Assembly (NCBI GenBank): GCA_903894565.1
Contig: CAITQP010000006.1
Coordinates: 32,033 to 96,032, forward strand
Source: an uncultured bacterium
GTDB lineage: Bacteria > Patescibacteriota > Minisyncoccia > Phycocordibacterales > UBA9973
Direction of reading: 5' to 3'
DNA length: 64,000 bases
The first letter of the stretch is position 1; each line of letters starts with the position of its first letter. A program made the translations under genes and the position numbers. Below the pieces are notes generated by a model. It saw only the letters and a program-made list of their open reading frames with translations. It had not been told where the DNA came from and searched no databases. This document shows positions 44,076 to 47,598 of the stretch, one piece after another.

Positions 44076-44159
44076 AGTTCGATTCGCGGAGGGATACTCA
44101 ATCCTGAAAGGCCAAAAACCTTGCAAAATATGAGGCCTCCGCGTCGACCTTGGCTGTGC
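44076..44159. repeat. Direct repeat copy 1 (pairs with 47515–47598), followed by a degenerate tRNA 3'-half remnant (to about 44210)
   Basis: 40-bp identical core AAAAACCTTGCAAAATATGAGGCCTCCGCGTCGACCTTGG at 44114–44153 and 47553–47592. Flanking similarity AGGTTCGATTC...GCGG. Remnant TGTGCGCTCGCTTGGAATCTAACC versus TGTGCCCCCGCGAGGAATCGAACC. Confidence 0.8.
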
Positions 44160-44313
44160 GCTCGCTTGGAATCTAACCATCAGCGTCGCCCTTGTGGGGT
44201 AGCTTGTAAAATATAGGTTTTTTGAAGGGTATTTTATAGGTTAAGAAATAAACTTGCCTTTAGTGACCTAATCTAATATAATCTCATATATCTAATACAT
44301 TAGATTCGATAAT

Positions 44314-45363
44314 ATGAATTACAACAAACGCATCAAAAATATACCACAAAATCTCTGGTCGCTCATCAACCAAATTGATGAATTAAAAGGTCGTTGGGTT
44401 GGTGGGGCGACGCTCAATCCTCAGGCACTCGGACGATTGAAGCGTTCAGTACTCGTTACTTCGACTGGGGCATCCACACGTATCGAGGGTGCGAAACTAT
44501 CCGACGAAGATATTGAGAAAATGATGCGCGGACTTTCGATGCAGAAATTCACCGATCGAGATAAACAGGAAGTGCAGGGATATTATGAACTTCTAGAAAA
44601 TGTTTTCAACTCATACGAAAAAATTCCTTTTTCAGAAAGCACTATCAAGCATTTACATCGAGAATTGTTGAAGTATGCGGAGAAAGACAAACTCCATCGT
44701 GGAGAATACAAAAAAATTGAAAACAAGGTTGAGATGATAGACGATGCCGGAAAATCTATCGGTGTGTTATTCGACACAACTCCCGCATGGCTCACGCCAA
44801 AAGAAATGCAAGAACTCGTGGAATGGACGCGTGAAGCAATCGGGCTAAAAGAAATTCATCCGCTTCTCATTATCGCCAATTTTCTCGTTGAGTTTCTAAA
44901 CATTCACCCGTTCCAAGATGGTAATGGTCGTCTTTCGAGAGTACTGACAAATTTGCTTCTCTTGCAGGCTGGCTATGAGTATGCGCCGTATGTTTCGCAT
45001 GAGAAATTGGTTGAAGATAACAAAGCTGATTACTATCTATCTCTCAGAAAAAGCCAGAAGACACTCAAGACCGAAAAACCATATATAACACCGTGGCTTG
45101 AATTCTTTTTCAGGGTTCTATTGACGCAAGCAAACCAAGCCATCGAATTATTATCAAAAGAAAATATTGATAAGCTTCTTTCTCCAAAACAACTTCTTGT
45201 ATGGAATTATCTCGAAAAAGTATCAGAAGCTACCCCAGGTGAAATTTCAAAAAATACTAAAGTTGCGCGACCGACCGTATCACAGGCACTCGACACACTT
45301 CTTCGTTTGAAAAAAGTAGAACGTATTGGACAAGGACGAACTACGAGATACAAGAAAAAGTAA
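44314..45363 (+). CDS. Fic-family protein (class II, N-terminal inhibitory helix) with a C-terminal winged HTH
   Basis: Fic motif HPFQDGNGRLSRVL, inhibitory motif STRIEG ([S/T]xxxE[G/N]), and a C-terminal wHTH. Confidence 0.8.
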   Translation: MNYNKRIKNIPQNLWSLINQIDELKGRWVGGATLNPQALGRLKRSVLVTSTGASTRIEGAKLSDEDIEKMMRGLSMQKFTDRDKQEVQGYYELLENVFNSYEKIPFSESTIKHLHRELLKYAEKDKLHRGEYKKIENKVEMIDDAGKSIGVLFDTTPAWLTPKEMQELVEWTREAIGLKEIHPLLIIANFLVEFLNIHPFQDGNGRLSRVLTNLLLLQAGYEYAPYVSHEKLVEDNKADYYLSLRKSQKTLKTEKPYITPWLEFFFRVLLTQANQAIELLSKENIDKLLSPKQLLVWNYLEKVSEATPGEISKNTKVARPTVSQALDTLLRLKKVERIGQGRTTRYKKK

Positions 45364-45374
45364 AAGGAACATGT

Positions 45375-47507
45375 ATGACGAATCAAGAAAAACTCGCTTT
45401 ATATCGTTCATTGTTTCGTGGTCGCGATGATGCATATCCGCGTCGATGGGAAAAGAACGGAAAGAGCGGGTGGACTCCCGCATATTCTTTCGACTGGAAC
45501 GAGTTTAACACGCATAGGGCGAGAGGTGGCTCAATAAAAGACTTCGAACATAAAACACTTCTGCCTGTGACAAATGAGATTTTGCTAAATCATCTTCTCG
45601 GAAAAGATACTGTAGGTATTTACCCGATACTTCAAGACAATACTTCGTATTTTATTGTAGCCGATTTTGATGAAGCCGATTGGAAAGCCGATGCAAAAAA
45701 ATTAGTTGACGTTTGTCTAAAACAAAACCTATCTGCATATTCAGAAATTTCACGCTCGGGAAATGGCGCTCATGTCTGGATATTTTTCGATGATAAATAT
45801 CCATGCTGGAAATCGCGATCAATTTTACTCGAACTTATTCGAAAAACATTCAGATATTCTGAATTTGCCAAGGAAATAAGTTTTGATCGGTTGTTCCCAA
45901 ACCAAGACACTATAACCGATGGCGGATTCGGAAACCTGATCGGGCTACCGCTTCAGGGCGAGCGTGTCATGCACGGCGCGTCTCTTTTTTGTGATTCCGA
46001 AAACTTTTTTCAATACCCTGATCAATGGGAATTTTTGAAGACTATTCATAAACATACAACAGAAGAACTCGACAATCTATATGATGAAATTTTCGGGCGC
46101 AAGGAATCACAAATTGAATCTACAGCTTTGAGTACATCCGACGTTCATATTACTGTTGATGGTTCGGTAAGAATCAAAAAGCAGGAACTTACATCGGGCA
46201 TAACTGCTTTCATAAAAGAAGAACTGAATATTTTCAATAAGGAATACGCGGCGAAAAAACGCCTTGGTAAATCAACATTCGGAACTGAAAAATATTTTAA
46301 TCTGGTGCAAGACCGCGAAGACGAGGTTTCGCTACCGCGAGGATTTTTGGAGAAACTCATTGTATATTTTGAATCTGAAAAAATTCCACATCAAATTATT
46401 GAAGAATACAAAAAACATGAAAGTATAAAATTCAAAAGCACTATTACTATCCACCCAGAACAAGAAAAAATACTCAAAACTATTGAAAACAAAACTAACG
46501 GCATAATAGTTTCTCCTCCTGGAAGTGGAAAGACGATTGTTGCGCTTGAGCTCGTGACAAAACTTAGATTACCGACGCTCATTCTCGTCAACCGAAACCA
46601 GTTGCTTTCGCAATGGGTCGAGCGAATTGATCAATTTTTTGGAATTCCAAAAATACAAATCGGAGTTATTTCAGGTACCAAGAAAAAAGTCGGCAAGCAG
46701 ATCACTGTCGCCTCATTGCAAACGCTTGTGCGTTACAAAAATCTCAAAGAAATTCTGGGTTCATTCGGAGTAATTATTATTGACGAATGCCATCACATAC
46801 CGGCAAAAACATATCGTGAACTTATTTGGTCATTCAAAAGCAAATATTGCTTCGGACTCACAGCAACCCATGAGCGAAAGCACGGAACGGAGAAAATAAG
46901 TGAGCTCATGATCGGGTCAGTCATAGCAGAAATGAAATCGGAAGATATGCCAGAGGTTAAAACATTTGAAATAACTATTCATCCGACAAAGATAACTCTG
47001 CCCTTTCGATATAAAACCGACCATTATGAAGCACTGGCGAAAGTCATATCGTTTGATTCTGCTCGTAATGAATTAGTCACCAAAGCAATTTTGAAAGAGG
47101 TTAAAGCAAAACGCAAAGTGCTTATACTTACCGAGCGCAAGGAGCATCTTGAAATACTTAACCTATACCTGCGTGGTGAAATTGAAACTATTTCCATTTC
47201 CGGTGACGATTCAGCACGTTCACGAAAACTTAAACTCGATCAGATTAAAGCAGGTAATTTTCGATTGTTGCTCGCAACAGGCCAATTACTTGGCGAAGGA
47301 TTTGATGTTCAAGGAATTGATACTATTGTGCTCGCATTTCCTTTTTCATTCGAGGGAAAACTCACTCAATATATTGGCAGACTGCGTGGCGAAGGAGTGA
47401 AGCATATTATCGATTTTCATGATGAAAAAGTAGAATTTCTTGATCGACAGTTTCAGAAAAGAAAAAGATTTTACAAAAATAAGCTTGGTATTGTCTTAAC
47501 CGAATAA
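45375..47507 (+). CDS. AEP-superfamily primase-polymerase (Prim-Pol) fused to an SF2 (DEAH-like) helicase
   Basis: Prim-Pol motifs ADFDEAD and SRSGNGAHVWIFF. Helicase Walker A SPPGSGKT, motif II IIIDECHH, motif VI QYIGRLRG. Confidence 0.75.
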   Translation: MTNQEKLALYRSLFRGRDDAYPRRWEKNGKSGWTPAYSFDWNEFNTHRARGGSIKDFEHKTLLPVTNEILLNHLLGKDTVGIYPILQDNTSYFIVADFDEADWKADAKKLVDVCLKQNLSAYSEISRSGNGAHVWIFFDDKYPCWKSRSILLELIRKTFRYSEFAKEISFDRLFPNQDTITDGGFGNLIGLPLQGERVMHGASLFCDSENFFQYPDQWEFLKTIHKHTTEELDNLYDEIFGRKESQIESTALSTSDVHITVDGSVRIKKQELTSGITAFIKEELNIFNKEYAAKKRLGKSTFGTEKYFNLVQDREDEVSLPRGFLEKLIVYFESEKIPHQIIEEYKKHESIKFKSTITIHPEQEKILKTIENKTNGIIVSPPGSGKTIVALELVTKLRLPTLILVNRNQLLSQWVERIDQFFGIPKIQIGVISGTKKKVGKQITVASLQTLVRYKNLKEILGSFGVIIIDECHHIPAKTYRELIWSFKSKYCFGLTATHERKHGTEKISELMIGSVIAEMKSEDMPEVKTFEITIHPTKITLPFRYKTDHYEALAKVISFDSARNELVTKAILKEVKAKRKVLILTERKEHLEILNLYLRGEIETISISGDDSARSRKLKLDQIKAGNFRLLLATGQLLGEGFDVQGIDTIVLAFPFSFEGKLTQYIGRLRGEGVKHIIDFHDEKVEFLDRQFQKRKRFYKNKLGIVLTE

Positions 47508-47514
47508 GATTACA

Positions 47515-47598
47515 GGTTCGATTCTTTGCGGGGTGCTCGATTTCAAAAGGTAAAAAACCTTGCAAAATATGAGGCCTCCGCGTCGACCTTGGATGTGC
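47515..47598. repeat. Direct repeat copy 2, abutting and overlapping the 3' end of tRNA-Arg
   Basis: See copy 1. Confidence 0.8.

What the first reader, a model, noticed from the sequence alone, without database searches (positions are those of the whole stretch)
44076..47598. 84-bp direct repeat with a decayed tRNA-Arg 3' remnant brackets a 3.4 kb Fic + primase-helicase module
The two copies lie at 44076–44159 and 47515–47598 and share a 40-bp identical core. Copy 2 runs into the 3' end of the intact tRNA-Arg. Copy 1 continues into a degenerate tRNA 3'-half (TGTGCGCTCGCTTGGAATCTAACC versus TGTGCCCCCGCGAGGAATCGAACC). This is the signature of successive integrations at one tRNA (attL/attR duplication). 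The enclosed module has no integrase of its own, which suggests a satellite or remnant mobilised in trans by the upstream serine recombinase.
Basis: seen in the sequence. Interest (0 to 1): 0.7.

Follow-up and report, generated by a model that had tools for sequence, protein, structure and literature searches.

The report
Stacked mobile cassettes at a tRNA gene
The repeat is real: it is the conserved tRNA-side end of two mobile DNA cassettes stacked behind one tRNA-Arg gene in an uncultured, small-genome (Patescibacteria) bacterium, and it belongs to a widespread serine-recombinase element family that inserts at the last bases of many different tRNA genes.

Summary
Observation confirmed. 44074-44178 and 47513-47617 are a 105-nt direct repeat (81% identical, exact 40-mer core, only two copies in the window). 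Copy 2 abuts the intact tRNA-Arg(TCT). Copy 1 runs into a 19-23-nt tRNA-like stub.

Interpretation partly supported. A related genome (L019) has an empty site, so the inserted block is the whole 8.1 kb from 39501 to 47594, not just 3.4 kb. It holds two cassettes:
- B (39501-44159): a large serine recombinase (LSR) plus small ORFs.
- A (44160-47598): Fic-wHTH plus an AEP-primase/SF2-helicase, with no recombinase.

The repeat is not an attL/attR pair. Both copies are the same end, the tRNA-proximal "P arm", of an LSR element family found in many Patescibacteria metagenome contigs. The family sits beside at least 7 tRNA species. The sequence shared by its two junction types is only TGTGC, at the tRNA 3' terminus. 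The true distal end is at 39501-39524.

B-only, A-only, reverse-order and empty states all occur in relatives, so A and B are separable. The tRNA-like stub is a conserved left end of the Fic/helicase cassette, not in-situ decay. Trans-mobilisation of A by the LSR is plausible but unproven; homologous recombination through the 40-46-bp identity is an equal alternative. The closest analogues are SCCmec-type composite islands and tycheposon arrays.

The parts
39501..39524 (+). Distal end of the whole 8.1-kb island: core TGTGC plus the P' arm (TGTGCCCCAACCGCGTCTCGGACG), immediately right of the host flank and the start codon of the metallophosphoesterase gene (39491)
   Evidence: Homology to the empty-site genome L019 stops at 39495 and resumes at 47595. 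The same 24-mer (0-3 mismatches) follows unrelated flanks in L054, L035, L038, L048, L128, L129 and L108.
39525..40134 (+). Conserved non-coding leader of cassette B with iteron-like repeats: three ~60-nt units at 39625-39820 and the palindrome 40018-40068. A 70-aa ORF lies at 39701-39913.
   Evidence: the repeat finder. The region is 85-90% identical in L054, L128 and L129. Function not tested.
40135..41454 (+). Large serine recombinase of cassette B (439 aa; the mechanical ORF starts at TTG 40114)
   Evidence: Pfam Resolvase + Recombinase + Zn_ribbon_recom. PHROG 95 integrase, E=3.7e-60. Matches the SPbeta and TP901-1 integrase structures. YARKS catalytic-serine motif present.
41483..44040 (.). 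Cargo of cassette B: four small ORFs with no family match (41483-42067 +, 42424-42984 +, 43025-43579 +, 43642-44040 -)
   Evidence: No significant Pfam match (two hits for 41483-42067 are below the gathering cut-off), and no PADLOC or PHROG hits. The same genes were called on the independent contig L003.
44074..44153 (+). Repeat copy 1 = tRNA-proximal end (P arm unit) of cassette B; exact core 44114-44153
   Evidence: It is 86% identical to the L055 unit and 82% to the L054 unit, against 77% to copy 2.
44155..44159 (+). Core TGTGC at the B/A junction
   Evidence: TGTGC is the only sequence common to proximal and distal junctions across the family.
   Evidence: 14/19 identical to the tRNA-Arg 3' end. 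Homologous stubs lie at three junctions in L111, and a similar tRNA-like stub in L042. Homology of the Fic module to L108 starts at 44201.
44254..44306 (+). Promoter-like site (44254-44282) and conserved palindrome CTAATCTAATATAATCTCATATATCTAATACATTAGATT upstream of Fic, a likely operator
   Evidence: Promoter scan. The palindrome is conserved in every Fic/helicase context examined: L108, L111, L113, L117, L125.
44314..45363 (+). Fic-domain protein with C-terminal wHTH (349 aa)
   Evidence: Pfam Fic E=1.8e-17. PADLOC SoFic E=7.7e-43. Intact motif HPFQDGNGRLSR at residue 198.
45375..47507 (+). AEP primase-polymerase domain fused to an SF2 (ResIII/DEAD) helicase (710 aa)
   Evidence: Pfam AEP-TOTE E=5.9e-80, ResIII, DEAD, Helicase_C. 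PADLOC PrimPol. DFD, GSGKT and DECH motifs present. Many of the homologues found are of similar length.
47513..47592 (+). Repeat copy 2 = tRNA-proximal end (P arm unit) of cassette A; exact core 47553-47592
   Evidence: It is 85% identical to the L054 unit and 81% to the tRNA-proximal unit of L108.
47594..47598 (+). Core TGTGC at the tRNA junction. On the tRNA strand it reads GCACA: the last 2 nt of the acceptor stem, the discriminator A, and 2 trailer nt.
   Evidence: Direct reading against ARAGORN and Rfam coordinates.
47596..47667 (-). Intact tRNA-Arg(TCT), the integration target
   Evidence: ARAGORN. Rfam tRNA, 60.5 bits.

Best explanation
The repeat marks a composite island made of two cassettes stacked in tandem at the 3' terminus of tRNA-Arg(TCT). 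Each cassette ends, on its tRNA side, with the conserved ~85-nt terminal unit of one family of large-serine-recombinase (LSR) integrative elements. The 40-nt exact core is the best-conserved part of that unit and is inferred to be the recombinase's P half-site.

How the family inserts. Elements of this family lie at the very end of tRNA genes. The only sequence shared by the two junction types is TGTGC (GCACA on the tRNA strand), so the tRNA is not split. One side of the element becomes hostflank|TGTGC|P' arm. The other becomes P-arm unit|TGTGC|tRNA.

Layout in this window:
- host flank
- cassette B: P' arm at 39501, the LSR, four small ORFs, unit copy 1
- TGTGC
- cassette A: tRNA-like left end, Fic-wHTH, AEP-primase/helicase, unit copy 2
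- TGTGC, then tRNA-Arg

What is shown:
- The 8.1 kb is an insertion.
- The unit and the P' arm are ends shared across the family.
- A and B occur separately, and in the other order, in relatives.
- The two unit copies have different nearest relatives.

What is inferred:
- The LSR catalysed the integrations.
- A, which has no recombinase, entered (and could leave) by recombination between its own unit-TGTGC-(tRNA-like) site and a hybrid site of the resident element. That step was either LSR-catalysed in trans or RecA-dependent through the 40-46-bp identical stretch.
- The order of arrival cannot be determined from these data.
For: Empty site.
- In L019 (about 80-90% nt identity) the metallophosphoesterase gene sits 16 nt from the tRNA-Arg 3' end. 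Window 39496-47594 has no counterpart there.

Family pattern.
- Of 30 metagenome loci with at least 3 kb downstream of an LSR homologue, 24 have a convergent tRNA within 6 kb downstream. Of 33 loci with upstream flank, none has a tRNA upstream.
- LSRs 77-95% identical sit beside tRNA-Arg-TCT, Leu-TAA, Leu-CAA, Gly-TCC, Gly-CCC, Val-GAC and Lys-TTT.
- All of these show ...CCGCGTCGACCTTGGN|TGTGC|tRNA on the tRNA side. Where the distal end is captured, it reads flank|TGTGC|CCCNNCCGCGTCTCGGACG.

Separability of A and B.
- B-only elements sit at tRNA-Arg(TCT) in L128 and L129, with both ends found, and in L036, L043 and L049, where only the tRNA-side junction was seen.
- The Fic/helicase cassette is bracketed by units next to tRNA-Arg, with no LSR within 8 kb, in L111.
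- The reverse order is seen in L108/L109, in two independent assemblies.

Independent origin of the copies.
- Copy 1 is closest to the L055 and L054 units (86% and 82%). Copy 2 is closest to L054 and L108 (85% and 81%). They are 77% identical to each other.

The recombinase.
- It has the full LSR domain set and the catalytic serine motif.
- All half-site pairs compared (P, P', the tRNA side) match best in the same register around TGTGC. rc(P) versus P' gives 12/24.

Literature.
- Tandem arrays arising because integration regenerates usable sites are documented in PMC7192596.
Against: - No recombination product (circle junction, or an empty site in the same strain) was observed. All mobility is inferred from comparison between genomes.
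- By my own knowledge of canonical LSRs, they recombine attP x attB only. Building these arrays needs hybrid sites (attL- or attR-like) to be used, or homologous recombination.
- The dyad symmetry around TGTGC is modest and centres on an odd position.
- No recombination directionality factor was identified among the small ORFs.
- The window comes from a metagenome assembly. Reads were not available to confirm that A and B are linked on one molecule, although a 46-nt repeat is shorter than a read.
Confidence: 0.75

Rival explanations
1. The 3.4-kb module integrated by a crossover inside the tRNA, near the T-loop. The two repeats are its attL and attR, and the stub at 44160-44182 is the displaced original tRNA-Arg 3' end, which then decayed.
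For: The stub is clearly tRNA-like (14/19, T-loop GGAATCTAACC) and lies in direct orientation at the far end of the module. A tRNA-Ser-like stub also lies near the distal edge of the neighbouring tRNA-Ser island.
Against: - No tyrosine integrase or any other recombinase is present in A.
- In related elements the junctions share only TGTGC, and the tRNA is left whole.
- 80 of the 105 repeated nt are non-tRNA element sequence.
- A homologous stub with the same GAATCTAACC change precedes the Fic/helicase module in L111. Its acceptor part (GGGCGCT) cannot pair with the tRNA-Arg 5' end, so it was never a working tRNA-Arg end.
- Identity is 40/40 in the core but 14/19 in the stub.
Confidence: 0.12
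2. Cassette A entered purely by RecA-dependent (Campbell-type) homologous recombination between its unit and the resident unit, with no site-specific step. The LSR plays no part in A's movement.
For: There is a perfect 40-nt (46 nt with one mismatch) identity flanked by much lower identity on both sides (26/40 and 14/19). That is the pattern expected at a homologous crossover. Every junction in the L111 array is unit-TGTGC-stub, with no P' arm and no LSR nearby.
Against: The 40-mer is also the most conserved part of the unit across genomes (1-2 differences in L054, L055 and L108). Its identity therefore need not reflect a recent crossover. 40-46 bp is a short substrate for RecA. The module's boundaries coincide exactly with TGTGC cores.
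Confidence: 0.25
3. In-situ segmental duplication of the tRNA-proximal end of a single 8.1-kb element, so that A and B have always moved as one unit.
For: One recombinase serves the whole block, and the core is an exact 40-nt match.
Against: Each copy is closer to units in other genomes than to the other copy. B-only, A-only and reversed arrangements exist.
Confidence: 0.05
4. A generic intergenic repeat or native tRNA terminator unrelated to mobile DNA, or an assembly artefact joining two strain variants.
For: A terminator-like hairpin plus T-rich tail is present on the tRNA-sense strand in both copies. k=31 contigs break at the repeat.
Against: - The unit is absent from the empty tRNA-Arg site in L019.
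- There are only two copies in 64 kb.
- Every copy found lies at a cassette junction (beside a tRNA, a tRNA-like stub or a P' arm), mostly within a few kb of an LSR gene.
- The copies have distinct left edges, so reads over 100 nt would resolve them.
- Similar arrays occur in independent assemblies (L108/L109, L111/L112).
Confidence: 0.04

Closest known systems
SCCmec / ACME composite islands of staphylococci (Ccr large serine recombinases). This comparison rests on my own knowledge, not on a tool result.
   Same: Large serine recombinase. Insertion at the extreme 3' end of a conserved housekeeping gene without inactivating it. Tandem stacking of several cassettes separated by direct repeats that contain the integration site. 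Recombinase-less cassettes sit next to a recombinase-bearing one and are thought to be moved in trans.
   Different: The target is a tRNA gene rather than rlmH/orfX. There is a single LSR rather than a CcrA/CcrB pair. The host is Patescibacteria. The repeated segment is ~85-105 nt rather than 15-20 nt. Closely related recombinases sit at seven or more different tRNA species. No orthology to Ccr was tested.
Tandem arrays of integrative genetic elements at tRNA genes (Islander/TIGER; PMC7192596) and tycheposons of Prochlorococcus (bioRxiv 10.1101/2020.12.28.424599)
   Same: tRNA-anchored islands built by successive site-specific integrations. Cargo-only members. Primase/helicase modules are common. 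tRNA fragments mark internal boundaries.
   Different: Those systems use tyrosine integrases in the great majority (910 of 937 tycheposons and cryptic elements), with the crossover inside the tRNA, so the repeat is the displaced tRNA fragment. Here the recombinase is an LSR, the junctions share only TGTGC at the tRNA terminus, and most of the repeat is element sequence.
Phage-type serine integrases (SPbeta SprA/YokA, TP901-1, phiC31, A118)
   Same: Same three-domain architecture and catalytic serine. Short core with imperfectly symmetric arms. The gene lies next to one element end.
   Different: Sequence similarity to solved integrases is low (E about 1e-9). The elements are only 2-5 kb and carry no phage genes. 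The targets are tRNA termini. Arrays with P-core-P' and P-core-(tRNA-like) junctions imply use of hybrid sites, which canonical integrases avoid (own knowledge).
TOTE conflict systems and SoFic (for the cargo of cassette A)
   Same: The helicase fusion matches the Pfam AEP-TOTE domain (E=5.9e-80). The Fic protein matches the PADLOC SoFic model (E=7.7e-43) and has an intact Fic motif.
   Different: No TPR-OB, TBP or separate effector gene is present, and these define TOTE (PMC12458937). In relatives Fic is usually paired with the AEP-helicase, and a RecQ-like helicase often follows. That pairing was not found described in the papers searched. No function was tested.

Membership tests
Large serine recombinase (serine integrase) integrative element | Recombinase with an N-terminal resolvase catalytic domain carrying the serine nucleophile, a recombinase domain and a zinc-ribbon domain | tested here: met
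   Pfam PF00239 + PF07508 + PF13408. PHROG 95 integrase. SPbeta and TP901-1 integrase structures matched. YARKS motif present.
Large serine recombinase (serine integrase) integrative element | A discrete insertion relative to an uninterrupted target site in a related genome | tested here: met
   L019 joins the metallophosphoesterase gene to the tRNA-Arg 3' end. Window 39496-47594 is absent there.
Large serine recombinase (serine integrase) integrative element | attL and attR share only a very short core, flanked by imperfectly symmetric half-sites | tested here: inconclusive
   Shared TGTGC only. rc(P) versus P' gives 12/24 in register 0, and every half-site pair compared peaks at register 0. 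The symmetry is modest and the cut site is not mapped.
Large serine recombinase (serine integrase) integrative element | Demonstrated integration/excision, and a recombination directionality factor | not testable with these tools
   No reads or assays were available. No family match for the small ORFs.
Classical tRNA-splitting genomic island (tyrosine integrase) | A tyrosine integrase encoded in the element | tested here: not met
   No tyrosine-recombinase family match in any ORF tested between 39.5 and 47.6 kb.
Classical tRNA-splitting genomic island (tyrosine integrase) | The direct repeat is the displaced 3' segment of the target tRNA | tested here: not met
   About 80 of the 105 repeated nt are non-tRNA. 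The tRNA-like part is 14/19 identical. It is homologous to stubs in L111 that are incompatible with tRNA-Arg.
SCCmec-type composite island | Tandem cassettes at the 3' end of a housekeeping gene, separated by repeats that hold the integration site, including recombinase-less cassettes | tested here: met
   Layout in the window and in L108, L111 and L059.
SCCmec-type composite island | CcrAB/CcrC recombinases and the rlmH (orfX) target | tested here: not met
   The target is tRNA-Arg and there is one LSR gene. Orthology to Ccr was not examined.
TOTE conflict system | TPR-OB/cold-shock fusion, TATA-binding-protein homologue and an effector in one operon (definition from PMC12458937) | tested here: not met
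   Only the AEP-TOTE domain matches. The neighbouring ORFs have no TPR, CSD or TBP domains.
SoFic-like Fic defence protein | Fic domain with the HxFx(D/E)GNGRxxR motif plus a C-terminal wHTH; full-length match to the PADLOC model | tested here: met
   PADLOC SoFic E=7.7e-43, covering residues 23-346. Motif at residue 198. Weak wHTH-type hits below the Pfam cut-offs. Anti-phage activity cannot be tested here.
Generic dispersed intergenic repeat (REP/MITE-like) | Many dispersed copies unrelated to element ends or to tRNAs | tested here: not met
   Two copies in 64 kb. Absent from the empty site. In other genomes every copy found lies at a cassette junction, mostly near an LSR gene.

The most novel reading that the evidence does not exclude
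A lineage of large serine recombinases in Patescibacteria recognises generic tRNA-gene features: the 3'-terminal GCA(C) and the T-loop at a fixed 12-bp spacing. This would let near-identical enzymes hop between at least seven tRNA species. Because hybrid or tRNA-mimicking ends remain usable, the lineage builds integron-like arrays of recombinase-less cassettes behind tRNA genes. These include a conserved Fic + AEP-primase/helicase (+RecQ) module and ~150-bp empty mini-cassettes. On this reading the 'decayed tRNA remnant' is a functional tRNA-mimic half-site, kept with a mutated T-loop CG, rather than debris.
Probability: 0.25. Interest if true: 0.7.

Novelty: new variant of a known kind. Interest (0 to 1): 0.5.

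Why it matters
Patescibacteria have tiny genomes and few described mobile elements. This locus shows that a single LSR family repeatedly loads cassettes behind tRNA genes, some of them candidate defence modules: Fic/AEP-helicase here and a Shedu-domain gene (SduA_C) in the next island. Two such elements lie in this 64-kb window, and homologues are abundant in metagenomes. If the recombinase reads universal tRNA features, that would explain rapid target switching. It would also be a compact, portable integrase with a target present in every genome, which is of interest for genome engineering. For annotation, the practical lesson is that ~85-nt repeats ending in TGTGC beside tRNAs mark cassette boundaries in these genomes.

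Tried and rejected
- Rfam scan of 39400-47900 at E<=1: only the two tRNAs, no family for the unit.
- RNA structure in the unit. RNAalifold on 14 units gave -0.8 kcal/mol. My two proposed hairpins were 77% paired against 74% in shuffles, with no excess covariation. A structured RNA or terminator role is therefore not supported, although a simple terminator-like match exists.
- Exact 31-mer of the core in IMG/VR: no hit. AEP-helicase in IMG/VR: one distant hit at 30% identity. There is no evidence the cassettes are viral.
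- Exact-protein look-ups for the flanking genes returned only short k=31 contigs that break at the repeat. They say nothing about excision.
- TOTE membership was rejected because the defining partners are absent.
- In-situ duplication was rejected on the unit identity matrix.
- Origin of the stub. I checked whether it could come from the neighbouring tRNA-Val(TAC) instead of tRNA-Arg; by eye it matches no better. Its source tRNA stays unknown.
- Order of arrival. I tried to decide between new cassettes entering at the tRNA side and at the distal side, using L108, L111 and L059. Both directions remain possible.
- Literature searches found no paper describing LSR elements at tRNAs in Patescibacteria/CPR within the searchable library. 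That does not prove absence.

Full report
**1. The observation.**
The region was read directly. The repeat finder reports one long direct repeat, 44074-44178 and 47513-47617: 105 nt, 81% identical, 3439 nt apart. The exact 40-mer AAAAACCTTGCAAAATATGAGGCCTCCGCGTCGACCTTGG occurs at 44114-44153 and 47553-47592. Allowing three mismatches finds no further copy in the window, and none is expected by chance. tRNA-Arg(TCT) lies on the minus strand at 47595/6-47667 and tRNA-Val(TAC) at 47734-47808. Copy 2 therefore runs into the tRNA 3' end. Copy 1 runs into GCTCGCTTGGAATCTAACC, which is 14/19 identical to the tRNA. Identity between the copies is mosaic: 26/40 in the left edge, 40/40 in the core, 14/19 in the tRNA part.

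**2. Gene content.**
Between the copies lie two genes:
- A Fic protein with a C-terminal wHTH (44314-45363). It matches Pfam Fic and the PADLOC SoFic model (E=7.7e-43), and its motif HPFQDGNGRLSR is intact.
- A 710-aa fusion of an archaeo-eukaryotic primase domain (Pfam AEP-TOTE, E=5.9e-80) to an SF2 helicase (Walker A GSGKT, DECH).

Upstream of copy 1 lie a 439-aa large serine recombinase (LSR, 40135-41454; Resolvase + Recombinase + zinc ribbon, YARKS catalytic motif) and four small ORFs with no family match. The LSR's nearest solved relatives are the SPbeta and TP901-1 integrases.

**3. The real extent of the insertion.**
The organism is an uncultured Patescibacteria/CPR bacterium. One related MAG contig (L019; flanking protein 96% identical, DNA about 80-90%) aligns with the window up to 39495, the start of a metallophosphoesterase gene. 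It resumes at 47595, the tRNA-Arg 3' end, with only 16 nt between the two in L019. The inserted block is therefore the whole 8.1 kb from 39501 to 47594, including the recombinase, and not only the 3.4 kb between the repeats.

**4. The repeat is the conserved end of an element family.**
- *Abundance.* The LSR has very many close homologues: the best 120 are 74-100% identical, and those that carry a source name are Patescibacteria.
- *Polarity.* Among 73 metagenome loci, 24 of the 30 with at least 3 kb of downstream flank have a convergent, minus-strand tRNA within 6 kb downstream of the LSR gene. None of the 33 with upstream flank has a tRNA upstream.
- *Targets.* For the sub-lineage closest to the window (77-95% identical LSRs) the adjacent tRNA is Arg-TCT, Leu-TAA, Leu-CAA, Gly-TCC, Gly-CCC, Val-GAC or Lys-TTT.
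- *tRNA-side junction.* In every case it reads ...GAGGCCTCCGCGTCGACCTTGG-N-TGTGC-[tRNA]. In many loci the whole ~85-nt unit is conserved, for example 89% identity to copy 1 in L054, beside tRNA-Val.
- *Distal junction.* The far end of these elements reads [unrelated host flank]-TGTGC-CCCNNCCGCGTCTCGGACG. The window has this at 39501-39524.
- *The core.* The two junction types share only TGTGC. On the tRNA strand this is GCACA: the last two acceptor-stem bases, the discriminator A and two trailer bases. The tRNA is not split.
- *Half-sites.* When the arms flanking TGTGC (P, P', the tRNA side) are compared in pairs, every pair matches best in register 0. rc(P) versus P' gives 12/24. This fits four half-sites bound by one protein, but the evidence is modest.

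They are not attL plus attR.

**5. Two separable cassettes.**
Relatives show every combination:
- *B-only.* B-type elements alone sit at tRNA-Arg(TCT) in L128 and L129, where both ends were found. In L036, L043 and L049 the tRNA-side junction alone was seen.
- *A-only.* In L111 the Fic/helicase module lies next to tRNA-Arg(TCT), bracketed by variant units, with no recombinase within 8 kb. That locus holds four unit copies, which delimit three cassettes. One is a ~150-bp empty cassette and one is a 6.6-kb block of unrelated genes.
- *Reverse order.* In L108/L109 (two independent assemblies) the order is host - Fic - AEP-helicase - RecQ - unit - P' - truncated LSR - DnaJ-like - unit - tRNA-Arg.

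The window's two copies are each closer to units in other genomes than to each other. Copy 1 is 86% identical to L055 and 82% to L054. Copy 2 is 85% identical to L054 and 81% to L108. The two copies are 77% identical to each other. This argues against an in-situ duplication.

**6. The 'decayed tRNA remnant'.**
Stubs following TGTGC in L111 (three copies) are homologous to the window's stub, and L042 carries a similar tRNA-like stub. They share GAATCTAACC (GAATCCAACC in one L111 copy) at the same distance from TGTGC. In L111 the acceptor-stem part, GGGCGCT, cannot pair with the tRNA-Arg 5' end. Homology between the window and L108 begins at 44201, just right of the stub. The stub is therefore an inherited left end of the Fic/helicase cassette. 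It is tRNA-derived or tRNA-mimicking and its source is unknown. It is not the local tRNA-Arg end displaced and decayed in place. In every stub seen, including those in L055 and L117 and the tRNA-Ser-like one at about 24103-24126 in the window, the T-loop CG is mutated. I cannot explain this.

**7. How it most likely works.**
*Shown:* the insertion, the shared ends, separability, and the independent origin of the two units.

*Inferred:*
- The LSR integrates its element at tRNA 3' termini through the TGTGC core.
- Arrays arise because hybrid junctions stay usable, as described in general for tandem integrative elements (PMC7192596).
- Cassette A has its own unit-TGTGC-(tRNA-like) site but no recombinase. 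It joined either through the LSR acting in trans or through RecA-dependent recombination across the 40-46-bp identity. The mosaic identity pattern fits a homologous crossover, but the 40-mer is also the most conserved part of the unit across genomes, so it does not settle the matter.

Junctions of the type P-core-P' (L108, L059) and P-core-stub (window, L111, L042, L055, L059) cannot all be made by canonical attP x attB reactions alone. Whether B or A arrived first cannot be told.

**8. Function of the unit beyond the half-site.**
A terminator-like hairpin with a T-rich tail lies on the tRNA-sense strand in both copies. Covariation does not support a conserved RNA structure, and Rfam has no matching family. 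The left edge of the unit (GGTTCGATTC...GGGGTGC) is an inverted T-arm/acceptor-like motif. It is conserved whatever the target tRNA. Its role is unknown.

**9. The cargo.**
In most of the relatives examined Fic is followed directly by the AEP-helicase, and in many a RecQ-like helicase comes next. One relative (L123/L124) has the AEP-helicase without an adjacent Fic gene. In five of the seven distinct contexts examined the module lies in the region downstream of a tRNA 3' end, directly in four of them:
- Arg-TCT in the window and in L111.
- Arg-TCT in L108, where a second cassette intervenes.
- Arg-TCT in L117.
- Ser-TGA in L125.

A palindrome upstream of Fic is conserved in all of them. The module fails the definition of a TOTE system, since it has no TPR-OB, TBP or effector gene. 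Whether it is a defence module or a replication module is open.

**10. Comparison and novelty.**
In how it works, the locus resembles two known things:
- SCCmec/ACME composite islands: LSR, the 3' end of a housekeeping gene as target, stacked cassettes including recombinase-less ones. This comparison rests on my own knowledge.
- tRNA-anchored arrays such as tycheposons.

It is a member of neither. The target, host, recombinase lineage and the long element-derived repeat all differ. Searches of the held literature found no description of LSR elements at tRNAs in Patescibacteria. I rate it a new variant of a known kind, of moderate interest. The family-level behaviour, in which one LSR lineage sits beside many different tRNAs and forms cassette arrays, is the more interesting lead.

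Noticed in passing
window 24059-31380: A second element of the same family. A paralogous LSR (27977-29296, 54% identical) lies about 2 kb upstream of a convergent tRNA-Ser(TGA) at 31291-31380. The 7.2 kb from 24059 to 31292 is replaced by 1.5 kb in L019. It also holds a gene with a Shedu SduA_C domain (26227-27471, minus strand). A tRNA-Ser-like stub (GCGGAGAGCGTCGTGTTAGAACC, about 24103-24126) lies near its distal edge.
   Followed up: partly
window 50040-56028: The region downstream of tRNA-Leu(GAG) (49954-50038) is low in GC (about 0.35). It has no counterpart in L019, which carries 3.9 kb of different DNA there. This may be another tRNA-anchored variable island. It contains a TrmB regulator, a radical-SAM/B12 protein and ORFs with no family match.
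   Followed up: no
window 39625-40068: Iteron-like architecture between the P' arm and the LSR gene. There are three ~60-nt repeats (39625, 39682, 39761), each holding tandem 9-10-mers (AAATGGCAC, GATGAGACA, AATGTTACA) and an inverted partner, plus a 20-nt palindrome at 40018-40068. The region is 85-90% conserved in L054, L128 and L129. It could be an origin or an operator array.
   Followed up: partly
window 44268-44306 (also L108, L111, L113, L117, L125): The palindrome CTAATCTAATATAATCTCATATATCTAATACATTAGATT, directly upstream of Fic, is conserved in every genomic context of the Fic/AEP-helicase module. It is probably the operator for the wHTH of the Fic protein.
   Followed up: partly
window 44077-44098 and 47516-47538; the same position in units of L035, L043, L045, L054, L055, L059, L099, L108: The left edge of the unit is an inverted tRNA T-arm/acceptor-like sequence (GGTTCGATTC..GGGGTGC). 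It forms a 25-nt inverted repeat, 84% complementary, with the tRNA 3' end 65 nt away. It is conserved whatever tRNA is targeted. In L036, L049 and L051 a T-loop-like motif sits there in direct orientation instead. Unexplained.
   Followed up: partly
L108 14195-14337 and 16860-17002 (same in L109): The same ~145-bp segment is inserted between TGTG and TGTGC at both unit junctions of this relative: once before a P' arm and once before tRNA-Arg. It starts with a stub-like sequence (GTCACGAATCACTAAGTCTGCTCGG) and may be an empty mini-cassette.
   Followed up: no
L117 3385-3480 and about 10112-10215: Inverted copies of a ~100-nt variant unit bracket a different LSR (507 aa), Fic, AEP-helicase and RecQ next to tRNA-Arg(TCT). 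The cargo is flipped relative to the window, which suggests recombinase-mediated inversion.
   Followed up: no
all tRNA-like stubs: window 44170-44178 and about 24117-24126; L111 1851-1873, 8602-8624 and 8755-8777; L042 1706-1728; stubs beside the units at L055 2407-2531 and L117 about 10215-10240: In every stub the T-loop CG (GAATCGAACC in real tRNAs) is changed, to TCTAA, TCCAA, TCAGAA or TTAGAA. This could reflect common descent, or selection against a working target half-site.
   Followed up: no
L035 10001-12675; L128 4043-11329; contig JACCDG010179493.1 (L061, L085): Several LSR genes of this family occur per locus or contig: two adjacent in L035, three within 7 kb in L128, and two on one 313-kb contig. 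The family is therefore multi-copy within genomes.
   Followed up: no
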